In this document: in pieces, positions 34,894-49,223 of the stretch
Layout: every line of letters starts with the position of its first letter
Numbering within the stretch: position 1 is the first letter of the stretch
Assembly (NCBI GenBank): GCA_903885795.1
Contig: CAISJV010000052.1
Span: 4,592-68,591, forward strand
Source of the DNA: an uncultured delta proteobacterium
Lineage (GTDB): Bacteria > Desulfobacterota > Syntrophia > Syntrophales > UBA8958
DNA: 64,000 nt
Direction: 5' to 3'
The notes under the pieces: model-generated
Seen by the model: only the letters and a program-made list of their open reading frames with translations
The model's database searches: none
What the model was told of the DNA's origin: nothing
Made by a program: the position numbers and the translations under genes

Positions 34894-37800
34894 CTATTGA
34901 AACTTCACTAAAGCCTCCCTAGCCCTATTCAAAAATGGGCCGGCATTGCATTTCTCAAATACCTCCACAGATCTAAAAATACACTGACGGCCTTTCTGAG
35001 TTTGCCCTTTTAACCTGTACAAGAACCCCAAATCAAAATAAGTCTCTCCCAGAAGGTTTTTGGCACCGATCTCTTGCGCCATCTCGATTGCCTTCAGAAA
35101 ATGGGATTCCGCCTTTTTGAAAGCAAAAGGAAGGGTTTTAATCAGGAATCCAAAGTTTTTTAGCAGGAACGAAAGGCCGGAATTTTTATTCTCTCCTGCT
35201 CCCGGGACAAGCTGGGTATAAATCTGCCCCAGGATGTGTTTGCAGACCACATAACGGTACTTCAGTCCGCAATCGTGATATTCCCGTGTGACTTCCTCTA
35301 TCATTGCCACGCCATTTTCTAGGTCCCCGTTAATGACCGTGATTATTCCCGAATACAACTTGGCTACCGTACCATGAGGAAATGAATGACATGTGTCTGT
35401 CAATACTGTCAATTCATCAAGAATTTTTTGTGCGTCCTGGTATTTACCTGCAGCGACACACGACATTCCCCATATCGTTGTTGCTGTGATTTTTATCAAA
35501 GGGTCCAAAGCAAAGTGGTAAGATTTCTTTATGTTATCTATCGCAGACAGAAAATCACCGGAGACAAGGTCGGAAAACGTAAGGCAGAGATAACCATCGG
35601 ACAGGCATTCACTTCGTAAGTGCATTTTTGCGAACTCAAGGATCCTTTCCCCTATTTCCTTGGACTCAACAACATCTCCCCTGAAATAGCGGGCGAACCC
35701 GATATAGAAAGAGATATGTCGAAAGAAATCCGGATCGGTTTTATATGATTCAAGCTCCTGTGCCTTCCTGCCGCATTCAATTGCCTCGTCCAGCATGCCA
35801 AGGTCAGCGTAGCACCAAGGGAGGAAAGTATACGCAGAAGCTATGACCTTTTCGTTGCCGATCTGCTCGCCTATTTCGAGGGCCTTCCTTAAATAACTTA
35901 GCGCTTCGGGCAGCTTATTGCTCCAGTTCATGGCTGCCCCGATCCGCGCATAGAACATACCCGACCTCTCTCCATCTCCCAGAGAGATGACCATAGACTC
36001 ATGATCTTTCAGCAAGTCTATGAGCTCATAGAAATGGCAACGGCGGTAAAAAATAACAGCCCATTGGATGAGTATGTCGACTAGGAGGGCAGTTTCCTCC
36101 TTGGAACGTTCGGAAATACCTTTAACGATATTAAAGGCTTCTTTATAATGCTGGTGGGCTTCGTCCAGGGCGTACCGGGCAAGGCTCTTCTCGGCCGACT
36201 TTACGAGGTATTCAACTGCCTTTGTACCGGATGGACCATTCTTGTAATGAAAAGCCAGAGACTCGTAGAAGTCAGAGAGCCTTTCCTGGAATAATTCCTC
36301 CATTACCCGACCGGTTTTTTCATGTATCCTCTGTCGCTCTTTTTTAAGCAGCTCATTATATACCACTTCCTGAGTAATCACATGCTTGAAGATGTATTCC
36401 AGGTTGGGCTCAACCGCTTTGGTCTGTATAAGATCCATCCGCTCCAGCCCTGAGAGGCTCTCGTCAATGTGCTCTTTGAGCTCCGTGGTACGCTTCAGTA
36501 TATCATACGGGAAAGACCTTCCGATTACCGAAGCCTCTTGAAGGATCTTCTTGGTGAATGGTTCTAATCGGTCAAGGCGCGCCGAAATCACCCCCTGCAC
36601 GGTAGGAGGAATGTTTTCCGTCAATATGGGTTTGTCCACGCACCATTTGCCGTTCCTTTTCACCAGGGCATTTGTTTCGAGAAGAGATACAACGATTTCC
36701 TCGATGTAAAAGGGGTTTCCTTCCATCTTACTCAGGACGTAATTCTTTAGTTCAGCAGGAATGTCCTTTGATTTCAGAATGGACTCCACCATTTTCTGTG
36801 CATCTTCAGGTTTAAGGTCCTTGAGCACGATCTCTTGAGTTTTACCAGTAAATGTGCTGAAGGCTGGGCGGGATACGCATAAAAACAAAGCTGGATGCTG
36901 ATGGCCAAAGATAATGCTCTTCAACAGCTCGATTGAGGAGGGATCGGCCCAATGGAGGTCCTCTATGCAGATTATAGTCGGCCCTCTCCGGCACAGATTA
37001 GCAATTATCTCATTTACGGCCTCGTATAGCCCTGCTTTCCGCGATTCGGGGCTAATCCGATCAAATTCTGGATGCTGGATGGAATAGAGACTTGACACAT
37101 AAGGGACAATATCCTCTTTCGCCCCCATCAGCGATCTTATCGAGAATACCACCTTGTTTTTAATGTTTTCTAGCAGATCACCCTCTTTAATATTCCATGC
37201 ACGACTCAGCAGGTCCGTCAATGGGTAATAGGTTGTGTTTTGGGTATATGTGTAACAATGCCCTTCAAACCACTGGATTTCGTGTGGGATCAGGGATGAC
37301 TTAAACTCCTCAACAAGACGGCTTTTGCCTGTTCCGACATCGCCAATTATCGAGATGATTGAACCCTTCCCCTTTTTGAGCTTTTCAACAGCGTCCGACA
37401 ATTGAGCCATTTCCGAATCACGGCCGATCAAGGCCGCCCTGAATTCTGGCTTCCCGTGTGTTTTTACCGGCTCTTTTTTAGCGGACAGAACCCTGTAAAT
37501 CTGCACCGTCTCTGTTTTGCCTTTGAGAATTGTTGGCTCAAACTTTTCGAAATCGAAGTATCCTTCCGTTTGCCTGTGAGTTTCCGGCCCTACAACAATT
37601 TGGTCCGCTTTAGCCATAGCCGCAAGCCGGGAAGCAACGTTGATTGCATCGCCGAGGACACCGTGGGTACCGTGTTTTAGGCTGACTCCACCTGTAACGA
37701 CAGGGCCGGTGTTGATGCCTGTATGCATTGCAAACGGCTGCCCGTTATTTTCAACAGGGGACTTTAAACCTTTTATTAATTCATGTATCTCTAAGGCGGC

Positions 37801-38160
37801 TTTGATTGCCCTTACAGGATCATCCTCATGGGACTCAATTGCACCGAAAAGAGCCATCGTTCCATCCCCGATAAACTTTTCAACGAAACCACCGTACTTT
37901 ACAACTAAACGGGCAGTCTCTCCGAAAATTCCGGTCATTATTGCCTTTAGTTCTTCAGGGTCGAGTTTTTCGGACAAAGATGTATAGCCGGAAAGGTCGC
38001 AAAACAATGCCGTTACAAATTTGCGCTTGCCTTCTGCTACAGGATGGGAGGCGGCTTTTTCCTGGACGGATAGATCTGTAAAACTTCTACCGCAATGATC
38101 ACAGAAATTTGCCGAATCCCGATTTTCGAATTTACACCCCGGGCATAGCACCATCTTCAC
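34894..38160 (-). CDS. Zinc-ribbon / class III adenylate-guanylate cyclase / AAA(STAND) ATPase / TPR multidomain protein (1088 aa)
   Basis: CPGCKFEN...FCDHCG. Cyclase core FVTALFCDLSGYTSL...KFIGDGTMALFG...GDAINVASRL. P-loop GDVGTGKSRL. The long C-terminal region is TPR-like helical repeats. The start is GTG. Confidence 0.85.
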   Translation of the reverse strand: MKMVLCPGCKFENRDSANFCDHCGRSFTDLSVQEKAASHPVAEGKRKFVTALFCDLSGYTSLSEKLDPEELKAIMTGIFGETARLVVKYGGFVEKFIGDGTMALFGAIESHEDDPVRAIKAALEIHELIKGLKSPVENNGQPFAMHTGINTGPVVTGGVSLKHGTHGVLGDAINVASRLAAMAKADQIVVGPETHRQTEGYFDFEKFEPTILKGKTETVQIYRVLSAKKEPVKTHGKPEFRAALIGRDSEMAQLSDAVEKLKKGKGSIISIIGDVGTGKSRLVEEFKSSLIPHEIQWFEGHCYTYTQNTTYYPLTDLLSRAWNIKEGDLLENIKNKVVFSIRSLMGAKEDIVPYVSSLYSIQHPEFDRISPESRKAGLYEAVNEIIANLCRRGPTIICIEDLHWADPSSIELLKSIIFGHQHPALFLCVSRPAFSTFTGKTQEIVLKDLKPEDAQKMVESILKSKDIPAELKNYVLSKMEGNPFYIEEIVVSLLETNALVKRNGKWCVDKPILTENIPPTVQGVISARLDRLEPFTKKILQEASVIGRSFPYDILKRTTELKEHIDESLSGLERMDLIQTKAVEPNLEYIFKHVITQEVVYNELLKKERQRIHEKTGRVMEELFQERLSDFYESLAFHYKNGPSGTKAVEYLVKSAEKSLARYALDEAHQHYKEAFNIVKGISERSKEETALLVDILIQWAVIFYRRCHFYELIDLLKDHESMVISLGDGERSGMFYARIGAAMNWSNKLPEALSYLRKALEIGEQIGNEKVIASAYTFLPWCYADLGMLDEAIECGRKAQELESYKTDPDFFRHISFYIGFARYFRGDVVESKEIGERILEFAKMHLRSECLSDGYLCLTFSDLVSGDFLSAIDNIKKSYHFALDPLIKITATTIWGMSCVAAGKYQDAQKILDELTVLTDTCHSFPHGTVAKLYSGIITVINGDLENGVAMIEEVTREYHDCGLKYRYVVCKHILGQIYTQLVPGAGENKNSGLSFLLKNFGFLIKTLPFAFKKAESHFLKAIEMAQEIGAKNLLGETYFDLGFLYRLKGQTQKGRQCIFRSVEVFEKCNAGPFLNRAREALVKFQ

Positions 38161-39152: not shown

Positions 39153-40628
39153 TTACCTGGCTTCCATGATTTTCTTATAAATGGCCGTCGTCAGTGCTTC
39201 CGGCTCCGTGTCCAGTCCCTCCCAGAGCGCTTTCCGGCAATCTTTGTAGGCCTTTATGGCTTCCCCTTGCATATGTCTGTTCGAGTAAAGTGTCATCAGC
39301 CGCTGGTAAACCTGCTCTGAAAGGGGATCGATTTGAATGATCTTTTTGTAACATTCGATGGCTATCTTTGAGGTGCCGCGTTTTTCCTGGATGCCGGCTA
39401 TCCTGAATAAAAGATTGATATAAAGTTTTCGCAATTCTTCTCTCTTTGCATCAATCCACGAAGTGTAAAGCTCTTCGGAAAGGAAATCGCCCTTATAAAG
39501 ATCCAGGGCGTTGTTGTAAAGGAAAAGAGCCGCCTCCGTGTCTCCCTCCCTTTCCTTCTTTTCACCTCGTCGGCAAAATGACAAAAAATCATCGAGATCG
39601 GTTTTGCATAATTCCTCATCCAGATACATTACATTAGCCTTGAGGTAGACGTATGAGGATCCAAAGGCCTTGTCCATTTCAGGCTCCAATACTTTTCTCA
39701 AGCGGTGCAGGGTTATCTTGAGATTCCTTTCTCCTGATTGAGCTGTGACCTCCGGCCAGAGAGCCTCTATGATCTGATCTTTAGGCACCTGACGCGACCC
39801 ATAGGTGACAATGGCCTTTAAGAGAAACTTGGGCAGGTGGCCGCCCCACTCTCTTTCTTCCATGACAGTCAGGCCGCGATAGAGGCGAAACCCCCCTAAG
39901 GTCTCTATGTTTATCCGGCAAAGACCGGAACGATATATCGCTTGTCTGACTTTCATCGCCTTCCTTAAAGCCTTTGCGTCTTTAGGGTCCCCAGAGCTCG
40001 CATTATTATTCTGAAGATCGAAGTCGGGAGGTAACTGGAAAGGTTCATCCTTTTCCTGTTTCCCGGCCCCCTCTTTCTTTGTGAGCCGAGGCAGCATGGA
40101 TTGAAGGTATGAGAAGGCTTGAGACAGTTGACGGTTTTTTCTGTCCAGCTCCGCTAACATTTTTGCTTCGGAGGTACGCATCCTCTGACTGAGTATCCGT
40201 GCCATTGCATAGCCGATAGAAGGGCATTGATGAATCAGCCCATCCAGGGCTTCCCGGGTCATTTCCAACAACCGCACCGATGAACCCGTGCGCACGCTTG
40301 CGCTGCGCGACCTGTCGGGAGTGAGCAGGCACATCTCGCCCACATAATCGCCGGGATCACAAATGTTCACCAATTGCTCATCGGGAGTGCCCAGGGCTTT
40401 GATGATTTCCAACTGCCCCTCTAGGATAATGTAGAACCGGTCGCCGTGATCTCCCTCACGAAAGAGGATTGTATCCTCGGGAAATACAAGTTGCCGCAGG
40501 ACAGCTATCAAATTTTTTATTTCACGTTTCGGAAGCGGGGACAGTAATGGGTTTTGGGAAATTAACTTTTCGTACATTACACTACGGCGCCGGTTGAGAT
40601 GTATCACTTTGGTCATTCCTCCCGCCAT
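39153..40628 (-). CDS. cNMP-binding domain + SARP/BTAD (winged-helix + TPR-like) transcriptional regulator
   Basis: ...FPEDTILFREGDHGDRFYIILEGQLEI...GEMCLL...RSASV... (cNMP domain). Then ...IETLGGFRLYRG...EALWPE...NLKITLHRLRKVLE... (OmpR/SARP wHTH) and ...YKGDFL....W....RE.L...Y... (BTAD). The start is uncertain (40628 or 40577). The ORF-track 5' extension is rejected. Confidence 0.75.
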   Translation of the reverse strand: MAGGMTKVIHLNRRRSVMYEKLISQNPLLSPLPKREIKNLIAVLRQLVFPEDTILFREGDHGDRFYIILEGQLEIIKALGTPDEQLVNICDPGDYVGEMCLLTPDRSRSASVRTGSSVRLLEMTREALDGLIHQCPSIGYAMARILSQRMRTSEAKMLAELDRKNRQLSQAFSYLQSMLPRLTKKEGAGKQEKDEPFQLPPDFDLQNNNASSGDPKDAKALRKAMKVRQAIYRSGLCRINIETLGGFRLYRGLTVMEEREWGGHLPKFLLKAIVTYGSRQVPKDQIIEALWPEVTAQSGERNLKITLHRLRKVLEPEMDKAFGSSYVYLKANVMYLDEELCKTDLDDFLSFCRRGEKKEREGDTEAALFLYNNALDLYKGDFLSEELYTSWIDAKREELRKLYINLLFRIAGIQEKRGTSKIAIECYKKIIQIDPLSEQVYQRLMTLYSNRHMQGEAIKAYKDCRKALWEGLDTEPEALTTAIYKKIMEAR

Positions 40629-41016
40629 CTTCTTGTCCCACCGCGTGTGGAATCGTAAGACATGAAATCTCCTGTTTACATGCGTAAACATACCATAATT
40701 TGCATCAGTGGAAAGATTTTTTTTCTTCGCAGATGATCGCAAAGGCATGGTTATCTGAACGGTGCTTTCGGTGCAAATATGTTCCCGTTTTTGCAGCAAG
40801 GTATTTTTTGAAAGCATGCCGGGCCTGCTCGCCGTTTCCAAATCGAAATCTGTAGCAAGCCCTCCGTACCGCTGCCAAAAGGGATAAATAAATATTTTCC
40901 GCCACTCCCATTTTGGCCTGTACGTTAATCTGCAATATCATCAAATAGTTAACATCGCATAAGTATTTTGTTCGCCCGTTTTTAGAGTAACCATTTATTA
41001 ACCTTGGCTATGTTAC

Positions 41017-41067
41017 TTCCTCTCCGCAGGCAGATGAACGGCGCCTTCTCCTGCAGGCAAAGAGGAA
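41017..41067. promoter_or_regulatory. Nested inverted/direct repeat region upstream of small-protein gene P1
   Basis: TTCCTCT...AGAGGAA encloses GCAGG...CCTGC. It can also be read as direct repeats TCTCCGCAGGCA / TCTCCTGCAGGCA about 27 nt apart. Confidence 0.3.
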
Positions 41068-41118
41068 CTAACCCGCAATAGGGGTTTGGGGAAAAGTAAT
41101 CTCAGATAAACACTTTAA

Positions 41119-41492
41119 ATCTATCCATGGGAGGGACACAATGCTTACACATGACAATGTTGCCAAAAAAAAGACGGAAGTTTTTAATAAGATTGAAGAC
41201 GCAGCGAGAAGAGGCGATGTTCAGAGAGTTGTTTACGCTGTCGAAACCCTGAAAGACATCGAAAAACAAAGCAGAAGGCTTGATAGCTCTCAAAAATATC
41301 GCATAGACGCCGGATTTGTTCTCTGATTTCCGCAGTTCCTCGCGGATTCACGGCGGGAACCAATTCGACGACACAATTGCTTCAAGGTGCTGTCAAACGG
41401 GGTCGGAGTAGCGCCACCCGACCCCACCTCCTAAAAAAATAGGAGGGGCGCCTAAATCGGGAAGAATTGGAGGTAATAAGGAGGGATATAAC
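41119..41492 (+). repeat. Segmental duplication copy 1 (RBS + P1 gene + ~165-nt conserved 3' flank)
   Basis: Aligns end to end with 41818-42187. I counted about 10 percent nt divergence in the CDS and about 7 percent in the first 99 nt of the flank. Confidence 0.9.
41141..41326 (+). CDS. Small helical protein P1 (61 aa), novel paralog family
   Basis: GGGAGGG RBS. MLTHDNVAKKKTEVFNKIEDAARRGDVQRVVYAVETLKDIEKQSRRLDSSQKYRIDAGFVL. It is 87 percent identical to P3, with 9 synonymous codon differences. Confidence 0.75.
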   Translation: MLTHDNVAKKKTEVFNKIEDAARRGDVQRVVYAVETLKDIEKQSRRLDSSQKYRIDAGFVL

Positions 41493-41636
41493 CTGCCAAG
41501 TGTTAAGTCTCTTCGCACGAACCGAATAAAGGCTTTTTTTATGCGAAGCGATTCAGGACTGACGGGCTTTGGTGCGGACGCTTCAGAGGACTGTTAATCA
41601 GAAAAAACATCCAACACATGAAAGGGAGGGGACAAA

Positions 41637-41804
41637 ATGGAGAAACTTTTACAAGCAAAAATGGATGCTCTTAAAAAGATTGAAGAAGCGGTGAAAAGAG
41701 GGGACTCCCAATCGGTCATTCACAACGCAAGGACGATTGAGAGCGTTGAAAGGAAGTGTAGGCAGATGGAAAATGAGGAGGTTGTCAGGTGGGGAGTTTC
41801 TTGA
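41637..41804 (+). CDS. Small helical protein P2 (55 aa; below ORF-track cutoff), divergent paralog of P1/P3
   Basis: Hand translation gives MEKLLQAKMDALKKIEEAVKRGDSQSVIHNARTIESVERKCRQMENEEVVRWGVS*. RBS AAGGGAGGGG. It aligns with P1/P3 (KKIE-A-RGD-Q-V...TI...E...). Confidence 0.65.
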   Translation: MEKLLQAKMDALKKIEEAVKRGDSQSVIHNARTIESVERKCRQMENEEVVRWGVS

Positions 41805-41817
41805 AAATGCACGAAAG

Positions 41818-42187
41818 ATCTATTCACAGGAGGGATACAATGCTTTCACATGACAATATTGCCCAAAAGAAGACGGAAGTTTTTAAAAAGATTGAAGACG
41901 CGGCAAGAAGGGGCGACGTGCAGAGAGTTGTTTATGCCGTCGAAACCATAAAAGACATCGAAAAACAAAGCAGAAGGCTTGATAACGCTCAAAAATACGA
42001 CATAGACGCCGGATTTGTTCTCTGATTTCCGCAGTTCCTGGCGGATTCACGGCGGGAACCAATTCGACGACACAATTGTATCGCGGTGTTGTCAAACGGG
42101 GTCGGGGTAGCGCCACCCGACCCCACCTCCTAAAAAAGGTGATCGCCCAAATCAGGAAGAGTTGGGGATGATGAGGAAAGATATAAC
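41818..42187 (+). repeat. Segmental duplication copy 2 (RBS + P3 gene + conserved 3' flank)
   Basis: See copy 1. Confidence 0.9.
41840..42025 (+). CDS. Small helical protein P3 (61 aa)
   Basis: AGGAGGGA RBS. MLSHDNIAQKKTEVFKKIEDAARRGDVQRVVYAVETIKDIEKQSRRLDNAQKYDIDAGFVL. It starts 35 nt after P2. The ORF-track start at 41789 overlaps P2. Confidence 0.75.
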   Translation: MLSHDNIAQKKTEVFKKIEDAARRGDVQRVVYAVETIKDIEKQSRRLDNAQKYDIDAGFVL

Positions 42188-42248
42188 GGGGACATTAATG
42201 ATCAATCAAGCCACAAAACAAACGACACGGAAATGAAGGAGAGTCGCA

Positions 42249-42752
42249 ATGTTTGTTCAGGAGCTTTATGGAGCGGATGATTTACAGGATGGGCGCTTGT
42301 TGGATGAAATCTACGATTTCTGGGACCAGCAGGATAAGCGGGCAATTTGGCTGCGTTTTGGATGTTTTCGGCTTCCTAAAAAGGAAGATTATGAAAATAT
42401 ATTTCGTCGGGCCATGATGGTGGTAGTTGTAAGGGACGAATCTGGAAAATTGATCGGTTATTCGGAGGGATGCCGGTGCAGGGACAATGAACGGCACGTG
42501 GAATTGGGGCTGGCCGTCGATAAGGAATATCGGCGCAACGGCGTGGCTATGGAAATGGTGATGACAATGTGTCGGGAATGTTCACACCAGGGCATTGAGA
42601 AGGCAGAGGCTTACATCATGCCTGAAAACCTGACTATGACGGCCCTCGTAAGAAAAATCATGAATATCCTGCCGGTTCGGCTAAAATTCGAGGACGGCAG
42701 TTTTCACGCCCTCATCGATCCAAAGAAGGCCCCAGCGCCGATCGCGTCTTGA
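42249..42752 (+). CDS. GNAT family acetyltransferase (167 aa)
   Basis: ...VELGLAVDKEYRRNGVAMEMVMTMCRECSHQGIEKAEAYIMPEN... is the acetyl-CoA binding core. AAGGAGAG RBS. Confidence 0.7.
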   Translation: MFVQELYGADDLQDGRLLDEIYDFWDQQDKRAIWLRFGCFRLPKKEDYENIFRRAMMVVVVRDESGKLIGYSEGCRCRDNERHVELGLAVDKEYRRNGVAMEMVMTMCRECSHQGIEKAEAYIMPENLTMTALVRKIMNILPVRLKFEDGSFHALIDPKKAPAPIAS

Positions 42753-42987
42753 GGCGTCTGGTCGGACATCAGCGTAGTCGCGCAGTTAAAAATTACTGCA
42801 GGGGTTCATCATTTCTATTCCCTAAGAAACAAGAAGTTGCGCGTAACATAACCACCCAGAAAAATCACCCTTCCAAAGTTGTATTTTTTACCTGTTGTCA
42901 TCAAAATAGTATAGAATCCGTTGAAGTGATATGGAAAGAGCTATTCTCCTTCCATGATGCACAGTCCTTCCACCCATCGAAAAAACT

Positions 42988-43024
42988 CGCCCTAACCCCA
43001 GCCCTCTTCCTGCGGGAGAGGAGA
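42988..43024. repeat. REP-like hairpin (copy E5, divergent)
   Basis: cgccctaaccccagccctcttcctgcgggagaggag. Confidence 0.5.
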
Positions 43025-43078
43025 TTTTGGAACTTTCGAGAACACGTCAAATAACGAAATTTATTGACAAGTGCCGAT

Positions 43079-43110
43079 TTAACAACCCCTGGAATTTTAT
43101 TGGTTGACAA
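43079..43110. promoter_or_regulatory. Candidate BirA operator (bioO)
   Basis: TTAACAACC-N14-GGTTGACAA. The half-sites are 7/9 complementary. The geometry and sequence resemble the TTGTAAACC-N14/15-GGTTTACAA type BirA sites. It overlaps the -35 box. Confidence 0.55.
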
Positions 43111-43132
43111 TCCGGCTCATTTCCACTATGAA
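43104..43132 (+). promoter_or_regulatory. Sigma70-like bioB promoter
   Basis: TTGACA-17 nt-TATGAA. It is near-identical (-35, 14/17 of the spacer, TAT) to the module at 49195-49223. Confidence 0.5.
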
Positions 43133-43160
43133 CCTCCCCGTTCCGGGGAGGTTTTTTATT
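43131..43160 (+). terminator. Terminator-like hairpin overlapping the bioB -10 box, SD and start codon
   Basis: AACCTCCCC-gttcc-GGGGAGGTT followed by TTTTATT. The 3' arm contains the bioB SD (GGGGAGG). Confidence 0.5.
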
Positions 43161-44208
43161 GGCGATCATTGAACAACTAAAGAACAAGTCCATAAAAAAC
43201 AAGGGGCTTGGCGAGGGAGACGCCTGGCGGCTCTGTGAAGAGGGGAGTCTGAATCCCTTCGGCCTCATGGCGGCGGCCTCAGAGATTCGCGATCACTTCC
43301 GGGGGAAGGCGATCTCCTTTTGCGGAATCGTCAACGCCAAATCCGGGAGATGTTCGGAAGACTGCGCCTTCTGTGCCCAGTCTGGTCACTACAAAACAAA
43401 GATTCAGGCCTACCCCCTCAAAAAGGCTAATGATATCATTGCGGCGGCGCAACAGGCCAGGTCCGCAGGGGCGGAAATGTTCGGCGTCGTCACCAGCGGC
43501 AAGGGAATCAAGTCTAAAAAGGAATGGGCGGAAATATTCAGGGCCATTGAAGGCATCCGCAGCTTGGGCGTCATGCCCTGCGCCTCCCTGGGCATCATTT
43601 CCGGGGAACGGGCAAGGTCATTGAAAGACGCCGGCCTTTTCCGCTATCACCACAATCTCGAAACCTCCCGGAGCTATTTCCCAAATATTTGTACGACCCA
43701 CGAATATGACGAAGATGTGGAGACGGTCCGCACCGCTATCAATGCCGGGCTTTCCGTATGCTCCGGGGGCCTGATCGGGCTGGGAGAAGGGATGAGCCAC
43801 CGGATTGAACTGGCTCTTACCTTGAGGGAACTGGGTGTCGATTCCGTTCCGATCAATATCCTCAATCCGATCAAGGGAACCCCGTTGGGTGGACGGCCGC
43901 CGCTGCCCCCCCTGGAAATTCTCATTACGATTGCCGTCTTTCGCTTTCTCCTTCCCGACCGGGACATCAGGCTCTGCGGCGGCAAAGAAAAATCGCTGCG
44001 CCAGTTGCTGCCCCTGGCAGTGGTTGCCGGTTGTAACGCCTTCATGACCGGCCATTACCTGACCACGCCGGGAAGAGACCCCGAACTCGATGTGGAGATG
44101 ATCAGGGATCTGGGGTTCATGCCGACGCGGGAACCCCAGCATGTCTGTAAGTGTTCGGCAGGTTGTCATCTGGAGGATAAGGAAATTGAAAAAGATACCT
44201 GTTCTTAA
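43159..44208 (+). CDS. bioB: Biotin synthase
   Basis: Radical SAM CSEDCAFCAQS, ...GVVTSG..., ...YHHNLETS... The start is TTG. Confidence 0.9.
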   Translation: MAIIEQLKNKSIKNKGLGEGDAWRLCEEGSLNPFGLMAAASEIRDHFRGKAISFCGIVNAKSGRCSEDCAFCAQSGHYKTKIQAYPLKKANDIIAAAQQARSAGAEMFGVVTSGKGIKSKKEWAEIFRAIEGIRSLGVMPCASLGIISGERARSLKDAGLFRYHHNLETSRSYFPNICTTHEYDEDVETVRTAINAGLSVCSGGLIGLGEGMSHRIELALTLRELGVDSVPINILNPIKGTPLGGRPPLPPLEILITIAVFRFLLPDRDIRLCGGKEKSLRQLLPLAVVAGCNAFMTGHYLTTPGRDPELDVEMIRDLGFMPTREPQHVCKCSAGCHLEDKEIEKDTCS

Positions 44209-49194: not shown

Positions 49195-49223
49195 TTGACA
49201 CACCCGCTCATTTCCACTATATT
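49195..49223 (+). promoter_or_regulatory. Sigma70-like promoter module (twin of the bioB promoter)
   Basis: TTGACA-cacccgctcatttccac-TATATT. The ATG at 49233 lies only 9 nt after the -10 box, so the mRNA may be leaderless. Confidence 0.45.

What the first reader, a model, noticed from the sequence alone, without database searches (positions are those of the whole stretch)
41327..42187. Non-coding flank downstream of P1 and P3 is at least as conserved as the genes and preserves three hairpins
The first 99 nt after the P1 and P3 stop codons differ at only 7 positions (~7 percent), versus 19/183 (~10 percent) in the CDS. The differences avoid stems. Four fall in the 12-nt loop of hairpin H2 (GACGACAC-N12-GTG[C/T]TGTC, 41367-41394). 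One converts an A.C mismatch in that stem into A-U. One lies in the loop of H3 (GGGGTCGG-N11-CCGACCCC, 41399-41425). One lies inside H1 (GTTCC...GGAAC, 41335-41360). H3 is followed by CCUCC and an A-run rather than a U-tract, then by a more divergent ~65-nt segment carrying 3-4 GGA/GGAGG motifs. This pattern fits a structured RNA. It could be a 3'UTR-derived sRNA, a protein-binding or GGA-motif sponge RNA, or a leader for the next gene (P2-P3 after copy 1, the GNAT after copy 2). It does not look like neutral duplicated DNA.
Basis: seen in the sequence. Interest (0 to 1): 0.65.

Follow-up and report, generated by a model that had tools for sequence, protein, structure and literature searches.

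The report
Conserved leader RNA of an acetyltransferase gene
The conserved "flank" after two small genes is best read as a structured, untranslated leader of the next gene, a GNAT acetyltransferase; it occurs twice here because of a tandem duplication, and it is an unclassified but fairly ordinary kind of regulatory RNA candidate found only in a few Syntrophus-like bacteria.

Summary
However, 7/99 versus 19/183 differences is not significant on its own (Fisher p=0.40), and the two copies are simply a 699-nt tandem duplication. The real evidence comes from related metagenome contigs.

- Hairpins H2 and H3, the CAAAC linker and a CCUCC tail are kept upstream of the same rare GNAT gene in 8 lineages.
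- Three of those lineages have no P1-type gene at all.
- This segment is more conserved (81-91%) than the GNAT coding sequence (74-87%). The spacer after it drifts (51-78%).
- No reading frame is conserved across it.
- G.U pairs make it plus-strand specific.
- H3 has two compensatory pairs and H1 has one, but there are too few sequences for statistical significance.
- No Rfam family matches.

A selenocysteine reading (UGA, hairpin H1, 35 open codons) was considered. It is not supported, because frame and length change between lineages and no Cys homologue exists.

Best reading: a cis-acting 5' leader of the GNAT mRNA, transcribed from a SARP-type promoter. The small-gene module (P1/P3 plus H1) is inserted ahead of the leader in some genomes. 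The regulatory mechanism is only inferred. This is a new RNA motif of a known kind, of modest interest.

The parts
40988..41005 (+). Direct heptamer repeats TAACCAT-TTAT-TAACCTT with an 11-nt period; probable SARP/BTAD activator site of the promoter that drives P1...GNAT
   Evidence: Unique in the window. Conserved in every orthologous locus, with or without P1. BTAD regulator genes are adjacent in all loci. The architecture matches published SARP sites (PMC10972967).
41014..41019 (+). -10-like hexamer TACTTC, 8 nt after the proximal heptamer (TATCTC or TAATTA in orthologues)
   Evidence: Position is conserved. Assigning it as the -10 element is an inference.
41141..41326 (+). P1, a 61-aa orphan alpha-hairpin protein with a TGA stop
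   Evidence: AF2 model has helices 4-24 and 27-58, pLDDT 77. No Pfam or NCBIfam match.
41335..41360 (+). H1 copy 1: hairpin GUUCC-U-CGC...GCG-GGAAC, part of the small-gene module
   Evidence: Present only in loci that have a P1-type gene. 95% of cells paired, with one G-C>A-U pair via G.U.
41367..41394 (+). H2 copy 1 (GACGACAC-N12-GUGCUGUC, with one A.C mismatch)
41399..41425 (+). H3 copy 1 (8 bp plus an A.C at the ninth position; loop contains the invariant GCGCC)
41427..41431 (+). CCUCC anti-Shine-Dalgarno-like tail, copy 1; the conserved block ends here
41435..41492 (+). Purine-rich GGA/GGAGG spacer, copy 1
41637..41804 (+). P2, a 55-aa divergent paralogue of P1/P3 (29% identity)
   Evidence: (D2). 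Its TGA stop is TAA in L015.
41840..42025 (+). P3, a 61-aa paralogue of P1 (87% aa identity)
42034..42059 (+). H1 copy 2
42066..42093 (+). H2 copy 2 (8 pairs, no mismatch)
   Evidence: Ensemble prediction gives 6.7 pairs.
42098..42124 (+). H3 copy 2 (9 G+C-rich pairs, plus a possible U-A pair inside the loop)
   Evidence: Ensemble prediction gives 8.8 of 9 pairs. The H2-H3-CCUCC block of this copy is 100% identical in L008 although the GNAT CDS is 93%.
42126..42130 (+). CCUCC tail, copy 2
42134..42248 (+). Purine-rich spacer with positionally conserved GGA motifs and the GNAT Shine-Dalgarno (GGAG, 42238-42241)
42249..42752 (+). GNAT acetyltransferase (167 aa), the gene the leader always precedes
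   Evidence: Pfam Acetyltransf_1/3. Only 11 orthologue clusters were found. Leader-GNAT linkage is seen.

Best explanation
The conserved stretch is a structured, untranslated 5' leader element of the GNAT acetyltransferase mRNA. It consists of:

- hairpin H2;
- an invariant CAAAC linker;
- a very stable G+C-rich hairpin H3 with an invariant GCGCC in its loop;
- a CCUCC (anti-Shine-Dalgarno-like) tail;
- a drifting purine-rich spacer of about 110 nt, followed by the GNAT ribosome-binding site.

It is transcribed from a promoter with two TAACCWT heptamers at 11-nt spacing (40988-41005). That is the architecture used by SARP/BTAD activators, and such activators are encoded next door in every locus.

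In some genomes a small-gene module lies between the promoter and the leader. The module holds a ribosome-binding site, a 61-aa alpha-hairpin protein and its own hairpin H1. In this window the module plus the leader was tandemly duplicated (699-nt period), so the leader looks like the 3' flank of P1 and P3. Copy 2, in front of the GNAT, is the intact one. Copy 1 carries two stem-weakening states.

Shown:

- conservation above the coding-sequence level;
- linkage to the GNAT gene independent of P1;
- no conserved reading frame;
- strand-specific pairing;
- no terminator.

Inferred: the element acts in cis on GNAT expression after transcription starts. The invariant unpaired bases suggest that a protein or small molecule recognises H2/H3. 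The CCUCC tail could switch between local GGAGG-like decoys in the spacer and the GNAT Shine-Dalgarno to tune translation.

I put about 0.6 on 'functional cis leader RNA' and about 0.2 on this particular anti-SD mechanism.
For: 1. P1-less loci L017, L019 and L022 carry H2-H3-CCUCC directly between the conserved promoter block and the GNAT gene.
2. Identity to window copy 2. H2-H3-CCUCC: 88-91% in L001, L017 and L019, and 81% in L022. GNAT CDS: 81-87% in the first three, and 74% in L022. Spacer: 51-78% across all orthologues. L008 shows 100% versus 93%.
3. RNAalifold recovers H2 and H3. 93% of cells are paired, against 34-54% for slid controls. There are compensatory U-A>C-G changes at two H3 pairs and many G.U single-side changes. 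G.U pairs would be A.C on the other strand.
4. No frame has conserved start, stop or length. The stem changes are mostly non-synonymous in the only frame that stays open.
5. Invariant unpaired GCGCC and AAC, and the conserved block ends exactly at CCUCC.
6. No terminator or sigma-70 promoter is predicted between P1/P3 and the GNAT.
7. The covariance model finds the element only at these positions in 172 kb of held sequence.
8. CCACCUCC has its best duplex partner in the next 570 nt at the GNAT SD in 6 of 8 orthologues.
9. Copy-specific H2 loops are shared between the window and L008/L015, so the duplication is older than that split and both copies persisted.
Against: - Covariation is not statistically significant: 2 pairs and 3 cells, reached by 168 and 52 of 500 shuffles respectively. 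There are only 11 distinct sequences from about 8 close lineages.
- No transcript data are available.
- The proposed expression platform is weak. In thermodynamic ensembles CCUCC mostly pairs with the nearby spacer rather than the SD.
- Window copy 2 itself (SD AAGGAGAG) and L025 (CUUUC instead of CCUCC) lack the strong anti-SD:SD match.
- The CAAAC:start-codon pairing proposed by RNAalifold is not supported.
- L028 and L020 have related GNAT genes without the element.
Confidence: 0.6

Rival explanations
1. Selenocysteine recoding. The P1/P3 UGA would be read as Sec, H1 would be the bacterial SECIS, and the 'flank' would be the C-terminal 35 codons of a 97-aa selenoprotein.
For: - Both copies are open in frame for 35 codons to a shared TAA, and 4 of the 6 differing codons are synonymous.
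- H1 starts 8 nt after UGA and has GG at the start of its loop.
- The stop is TGA in all P1-type genes seen.
- The lineage is Syntrophus-like, a group known to use selenocysteine (my own knowledge).
Against: - L001/L007 have a 2-nt insertion in H1, so the extension changes frame there (28 codons, different sequence). L025 has TAG after 7 codons.
- Only U[FL]P[QE]FLADS is shared.
- No Cys-containing or longer homologue was found among 5.8 billion proteins or 1.84 billion representatives.
- H2/H3 exist without any upstream ORF.
- There is no redox-type Cys partner in P1.
- The paralogue P2 changes TGA to TAA.
- An open 35-codon frame at this G+C content is not unusual; another frame is also open.
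Confidence: 0.05
2. Neutral DNA that looks conserved only because the duplication or a gene conversion between the two copies is recent.
For: - The within-window contrast is not significant (p=0.40).
- Contig L012 has P1 joined to the copy-2 flank. This suggests recombination between the copies, or possibly an assembly collapse.
Against: - Orthologues at 74-87% GNAT nucleotide identity keep the block at 81-91%, while the adjacent spacer falls to 51-78%.
- Copy-specific H2 loops are shared with L008/L015, so the copies were not recently homogenised.
Confidence: 0.04
3. A trans-acting or sponge RNA. H2-H3 with the single-stranded CCUCC seed would be released as a small RNA that targets Shine-Dalgarno sequences, or the GGA-rich spacer would titrate a CsrA-type protein.
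For: - A conserved C-rich single-stranded motif lies next to a stable hairpin.
- Four GGA positions are conserved among the closer orthologues.
Against: - There is no terminator or U-tail.
- The element is always in cis, immediately upstream of one gene family.
- GGA enrichment is not significant in the GNAT-proximal spacers (p 0.07-0.42) and is absent in L022 and L030.
- No other copies occur in the window.
Confidence: 0.12
4. A DNA-level operator. The inverted repeat GGGGTCGG-N11-CCGACCCC downstream of the promoter would be bound by a dimeric regulator.
For: A perfect 8-bp inverted repeat close to a regulated promoter, with one change that restores symmetry in L017.
Against: - L001, L007, L025 (G.U) and L022, L030 (U.G) break the DNA symmetry but keep RNA pairing.
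- H2 relies on G.U pairs in most sequences.
- In loci with P1 the repeat lies about 380 nt (copy 1) and 1080 nt (copy 2) from the promoter.
Confidence: 0.06
5. A short translated leader peptide spans H2-H3, for example MNGRN.LCNTNVSRCCQTG.. in L017/L019 or MLSNGVGVAPPDPTS from the GTG in the H2 3' arm.
For: ORFs with an ATG exist in L017/L019. A GTG at -12 followed by a 15-25-codon open frame is present in most sequences.
Against: - Starts, stops and lengths are not conserved in any frame.
- L022 and the P1-bearing loci lack the ATG ORF.
- There is no Shine-Dalgarno ahead of the GTG.
- The substitutions in H3 are paired changes that are non-synonymous in that frame.
Confidence: 0.03

Closest known systems
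Translational riboswitches and protein-binding 5' leaders that mask the Shine-Dalgarno sequence
   Same: - Located in the 5' untranslated region of one orthologous gene across genomes.
- Stable conserved hairpins with invariant unpaired nucleotides.
- A CCUCC motif complementary to the downstream SD.
- More conserved than the coding sequence.
   Different: - No Rfam family matches.
- No ligand or binding protein is known.
- The anti-SD lies about 110 nt from the SD and is predicted to pair mainly with nearby decoys.
- The anti-SD:SD match is missing in 2 of 8 orthologues.
- A whole small gene can sit inside the leader.
Bacterial SECIS elements downstream of UGA in selenoprotein genes
   Same: H1 is a hairpin that begins 8 nt after an in-frame UGA, has G residues opening the loop, and is followed by an open frame in this genome.
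   Different: - The extension is not conserved in frame, length or sequence.
- There are no Cys homologues.
- H2/H3 occur without any ORF upstream.
CsrA/RsmA-regulated leaders and RsmZ-type GGA sponge RNAs
   Same: Several GGA motifs lie in a purine-rich leader, and the last one overlaps the SD.
   Different: - Enrichment is not significant.
- The motifs are not consistently presented in hairpin loops.
- The best-conserved part (H2, H3) has no GGA motif.
SARP (BTAD) activator-dependent promoters of Streptomyces gene clusters
   Same: Heptameric direct repeats with an 11-nt period lie just upstream of a -10-like hexamer, and BTAD-domain regulator genes are adjacent.
   Different: - The host is a Syntrophus-like deltaproteobacterium.
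- The repeat sequence is TAACCWT.
- The regulators carry cNMP-binding or AAA/TPR domains.
- Binding has not been tested.

Membership tests
Any Rfam 15 RNA family | Covariance-model match at or near the gathering score | tested here: not met
   No hit at E<=10 in window 40000-44000 overlapping the element. No hit at E<=5 in four orthologous loci.
Cis-regulatory 5' leader / riboswitch-like element | Conserved position in the 5' untranslated region of one orthologous gene across genomes | tested here: met
   Upstream of the same GNAT subfamily in 8 lineages, including three without P1.
Cis-regulatory 5' leader / riboswitch-like element | Secondary structure supported by significant covariation | tested here: inconclusive
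   93% of cells are paired, and 2 pairs have double changes, but shuffles reach this in 52-168 of 500 trials. Only 11 sequences are available.
Cis-regulatory 5' leader / riboswitch-like element | Highly conserved unpaired nucleotides (a candidate binding pocket) | tested here: met
   Invariant loop GCGCC, linker AAC and tail UC.
Cis-regulatory 5' leader / riboswitch-like element | Recognisable expression platform (terminator or SD-sequestering helix) | tested here: inconclusive
   No terminator is predicted. The CCUCC:SD duplex ranks best in 6 of 8 orthologues but is not favoured in ensembles.
Bacterial selenoprotein gene with SECIS | Hairpin shortly after an in-frame UGA | tested here: met
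   H1 begins 8 nt after UGA in all P1-type genes. This criterion is loose.
Bacterial selenoprotein gene with SECIS | Downstream extension conserved as protein | tested here: not met
   The extension is 35, 28 or 7 codons long, in different frames relative to H2/H3.
Bacterial selenoprotein gene with SECIS | Homologues with Cys in place of Sec | tested here: not met
   None found. All family members are 43-78 aa and end at or before this position.
Bacterial selenoprotein gene with SECIS | selA/selB/selC/selD present in the genome | not testable with these tools
   Only 64 kb is held, it contains no tRNA gene, and the species is not in the genome collection.
Intrinsic terminator / 3'UTR-derived sRNA | G+C-rich hairpin followed by a U-tract | tested here: not met
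   H3 is followed by ACCUCCUAAAAAAA, and no terminator-like site lies in the flank.
CsrA-binding leader or sponge | Multiple GGA motifs beyond what base composition predicts | tested here: inconclusive
   GNAT-proximal spacers have 3-6 GGA against 2.1-3.9 expected (p 0.07-0.42). Window copy 1 has 10 against 5.4 expected (p 0.02).
SARP-type promoter | Heptameric direct repeats at about 11-bp period next to the -10 element, with a BTAD regulator nearby | tested here: met
   TAACCWT-N4-TAACCTT is conserved in all loci. BTAD genes are adjacent. The definition is taken from PMC10972967. Protein binding was not tested.

The most novel reading that the evidence does not exclude
H2-H3 is the aptamer or protein-binding core of a previously undescribed regulatory RNA class that controls a rare GNAT acetyltransferase under SARP/cyclic-nucleotide control in Syntrophia. 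The orphan alpha-hairpin proteins P1/P2/P3, encoded inside the leader, would be its RNA-binding partners, forming a Rop-like protein-hairpin autoregulatory module.
Probability: 0.12. Interest if true: 0.6.

Novelty: new member of a known kind. Interest (0 to 1): 0.35.

Why it matters
If confirmed, it adds one more narrow-range cis-regulatory RNA motif. It links a SARP-type, possibly cyclic-nucleotide-controlled, promoter to post-transcriptional control of an uncharacterised acetyltransferase in syntrophic deltaproteobacteria, organisms in which almost nothing is known about RNA-based regulation. It is also a useful cautionary case. A 'conserved 3' flank' of duplicated small genes turned out to be the leader of the next gene, and an attractive UGA-plus-hairpin-plus-open-frame pattern did not stand up as selenocysteine recoding. 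The element is restricted to about a dozen metagenomic sequences and has no known ligand or phenotype, so its general importance is limited.

Tried and rejected
1. **Selenocysteine extension.** This looked strong within the window. It was rejected after the 2-nt indel in L001/L007, the early TAG in L025, and the absence of any Cys or longer homologue.
2. **Long-range pairing from RNAalifold** (CAAAC with the start-codon region, CUCC with the SD). The first pairing is not supported: pair probability is near zero in 8 of 9 leaders, and its duplex ranks 17-133 of about 570. The second is only partly supported.
3. **Other copies.** The covariance-model search of the window and all loci found none.
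4. **More distant homologues.**
   - The GNAT profile search returned no new members.
   - The genome collection gave nothing with the protein alignment.
   - The DNA pattern gave only matches unrelated to this locus: the one inspected (L032) lies in G+C-rich coding DNA, and the other four are in Actinomycetes and Hydrogenophaga.
   - Two distant GNAT contigs had no retrievable DNA.
5. **Rfam.** Nothing was found in the window region or in the orthologues.
6. **P1 fold search.** It returned only generic helical hairpins, none at E<=0.001.
7. **GGA-motif enrichment.** Not significant.
8. **In-frame TGA scan** of the window for other selenoprotein-like genes. Nothing convincing.
9. **Literature search** for a described GNAT leader motif in Syntrophus. 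Nothing relevant.
Full report
**What is in the window**

The region holds a tandem duplication. A 300-nt direct repeat (41119-41418 and 41818-42117, 90% identical, period 699 nt) covers the ribosome-binding site, a 61-aa gene (P1 41141-41326, P3 41840-42025) and about 100 nt after the stop.

Between the copies lie a 94-nt copy-1-specific insert and P2 (41637-41804), a 29%-identical paralogue. A 167-aa GNAT acetyltransferase follows copy 2 at 42249-42752 (Pfam Acetyltransf_1/3). Upstream on the minus strand are a cNMP-binding BTAD (SARP-type) regulator and an adenylate/guanylate-cyclase-AAA-TPR protein.

**Check of the observation**

- The counts are exact: 19/183 differences in the CDS and 7 in the first 99-105 nt after the stop.
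- Both copies fold better than dinucleotide shuffles (z -2.0 and -2.8).
- H3 is followed by CCUCC and an A-run, and no terminator-like site is predicted.

There are three caveats.

- The contrast of 7% versus 10% is not significant (Fisher p=0.40).
- Three of the seven differences touch stem positions. The one described as lying in the H3 loop is the ninth H3 pair, which is G-C in 9 of 11 homologues.
- GGA motifs in the spacer are only weakly enriched.

**A lead that had to be tested: selenocysteine**

The 'non-coding' flank is open in the P1/P3 frame for 35 codons after TGA, up to a shared TAA. Four of the six differing codons are synonymous. H1 starts 8 nt after the UGA. TGA is otherwise an ordinary stop in this genome, used by 24 of 65 long ORFs.

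This pattern looks like Sec recoding with a SECIS element. It fails on comparison.

- L001-L007 (84% and 80% aa identity) have a 2-nt insertion in H1, which shifts the extension into another frame. It then reads 28 codons and stops inside H3.
- The more distant L025 has TAG after 7 codons.
- A search of 5.8 billion proteins with a Cys-substituted full-length query found only 61-78-aa forms ending in GFVL.
- A full HMMER scan of 1.84 billion representatives found six clusters, all 43-72 aa.
- The paralogue P2 switches TGA to TAA in L015.

I keep the Sec reading at about 5%.

**What the related loci show**

The GNAT belongs to a very rare subfamily, with 11 clusters at 57-95% identity. One is named as coming from a Syntrophus sp. 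MAG. Contigs for these proteins gave 11 distinct versions of the region from about 8 lineages.

Three lineages (L017, L019, L022) have no P1-type gene. There, H2, the CAAAC linker, H3 and CCUCC lie directly between a conserved promoter-like block and the GNAT gene. H1 is found only where a P1-type gene is present.

So the conserved unit is a leader of the GNAT gene. The small-gene module (RBS, P1, H1) is an optional insert between promoter and leader. That insert is bounded in the window by a short ACGGCG repeat (41038-41043 and 41350-41355).

Two more distant or rearranged GNAT loci (L020, L028) lack the element.

**Evidence for selection at the RNA level**

- *Conservation.* Relative to window copy 2, the 69-nt H2-H3-CCUCC block is 88-91% identical in L001, L017 and L019 and 81% in L022. 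The GNAT CDS is 81-87% and 74% in the same loci. The spacer after CCUCC is only 51-78%. In L008 the block is 100% identical while the GNAT CDS is 93%.
- *No coding signal.* No reading frame has conserved start, stop or length across the block. In the frame that stays open, the H3 substitutions are paired and mostly non-synonymous.
- *Structure.* RNAalifold recovers H2 and H3. 93% of pair cells are standard pairs, against 34-54% when partners are slid.
- *Compensatory changes.* Two H3 pairs change U-A to C-G, with a U.G intermediate in L022 and L030. H2 changes are nearly all to or from G.U. H1 keeps 95% pairing with one G-C>G.U>A-U series.
- *Strand.* G.U pairs mean the structure exists only on the plus strand, which argues against a DNA palindrome or an antisense gene.
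- *Invariant unpaired bases.* GCGCC in the H3 loop and AAC in the linker are invariant, and conservation stops exactly after CCUCC.
- *Statistical limit.* Covariation is not significant: shuffles reach the observed values in 52-168 of 500 trials. No further sequences could be found.
- *No known family.* No Rfam family matches.

**History of the two copies**

Copy-specific H2 loops are shared between the window and L008/L015 (GNAT 95% aa identity): GCUUCAAG in copy 1 and GUAUCGCG in copy 2. The duplication therefore predates that split and has not been homogenised.

Copy 1 carries A.C at one H2 pair and at the ninth H3 pair, and is predicted to be 8.6 kcal/mol less stable. In L008 copy 1 has also changed CCCCACCUCC to CCCAAACUCC, while copy 2 is unchanged. 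This pattern fits the GNAT-proximal copy being the one under full constraint.

Contig L012 joins the P1 CDS to the copy-2 flank and the GNAT. It is either a recombinant single-copy haplotype or an assembly collapse.

**Promoter**

A block unique in the window, TAACCAT-TTAT-TAACCTT (40988-41005), is followed 8 nt later by TACTTC. It is conserved in all loci, with or without P1.

Heptameric direct repeats at an 11-bp period next to the promoter are the published architecture of SARP binding sites (PMC10972967). BTAD regulator genes flank every locus. I infer one SARP-activated transcript running through P1, leader 1, P2, P3, leader 2 and the GNAT. No terminator is predicted on the way.

**How it may work**

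What is shown is a conserved, structured, untranslated segment of the GNAT leader. How it acts is inferred.

The CCUCC tail is complementary to Shine-Dalgarno sequences. Its best duplex partner in the following 570 nt is the GNAT SD in 6 of 8 orthologues (-10.6 to -13 kcal/mol). In predicted ensembles, however, it pairs mainly with GGAGG-like decoys in the adjacent spacer (3.6-5.8 pairs in 6 of 9 leaders). Window copy 2 (SD AAGGAGAG) and L025 (CUUUC) lack a strong match.

The CAAAC:start-codon helix proposed by RNAalifold is not supported.

My working model is as follows. H2/H3, with their invariant unpaired bases, are recognised by a protein or small molecule, and this shifts the CCUCC tail between decoy and SD. 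I give this specific mechanism about 0.2 and 'functional cis leader' about 0.6.

The P1-type proteins are orphan alpha-hairpins (AF2 helices 4-24 and 27-58, pLDDT 77). They have no significant structural neighbour and no family assignment. Whether they bind the leader is open.

**Verdict**

The element is an undescribed, narrowly distributed leader RNA motif, which makes it a new member of a known kind and of modest interest.

Noticed in passing
window 40988-41019: Direct heptamers TAACCAT/TAACCTT at an 11-nt period, plus a -10-like TACTTC. The block is conserved in all orthologous loci and lies next to BTAD regulator genes, so it is a likely SARP-type promoter outside the Actinobacteria.
   Followed up: partly
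window 34894-38160 (-) and 39153-40841 (-): A cyclase-AAA-TPR protein sits beside a cNMP-binding BTAD regulator. This could be a cyclic-nucleotide relay feeding the promoter of the P1-GNAT unit. The same pair recurs in L011-L014. L025/L026 show the cNMP-binding BTAD regulator (and, in L026, the neighbouring 229-aa protein).
   Followed up: no
window 41637-41804: P2 is a 29%-identical paralogue of P1/P3. Its TGA stop is TAA in L015. The whole P family has only six clusters at 50% identity among 1.84 billion proteins.
   Followed up: partly
L012 3001-3410: A contig of the same species carries a single copy: the P1 CDS joined to the copy-2 flank and then the GNAT. This is either recombination between the tandem copies or an assembly collapse.
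   Followed up: partly
window 41038-41043 and 41350-41355: A short ACGGCG repeat brackets the P1 module. P1-less leaders (L017, L019) look like an insertion or deletion at this repeat.
   Followed up: no
window 41493-41590: A copy-1-specific 94-nt insert contains an imperfect hairpin (CUUCGCA...UGCGAAG) around an A/U-rich core, just ahead of the P2 ribosome-binding site. It is also present in L008/L015.
   Followed up: no
window 43104-43129 and 49195-49220: A 26-nt repeat TTGACA(A/C)(T/A)CC(G/C)GCTCATTTCCACTAT (88% identical) lies upstream of bioB and at a second site near the biotin/ECF transporter genes. It may be a shared promoter or BirA operator.
   Followed up: no
window 41324-41362: Two alternative 5' arms (UUUCCGC right after the UGA, and GUUCCUCGC) compete for the same 3' arm GCGGGAAC. 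The MFE of copy 1 uses the first arm and that of copy 2 uses the second. This may be a ribosome-dependent choice at the P1 stop codon.
   Followed up: no
L001 7197-8588 (-) and L037 2162-9266: The genes downstream of the GNAT differ between lineages: a B12-binding radical SAM enzyme in L001, a two-partner secretion pair in L037, and bioB-birA-bioY in the window. Only the regulator, leader and GNAT are syntenic.
   Followed up: partly
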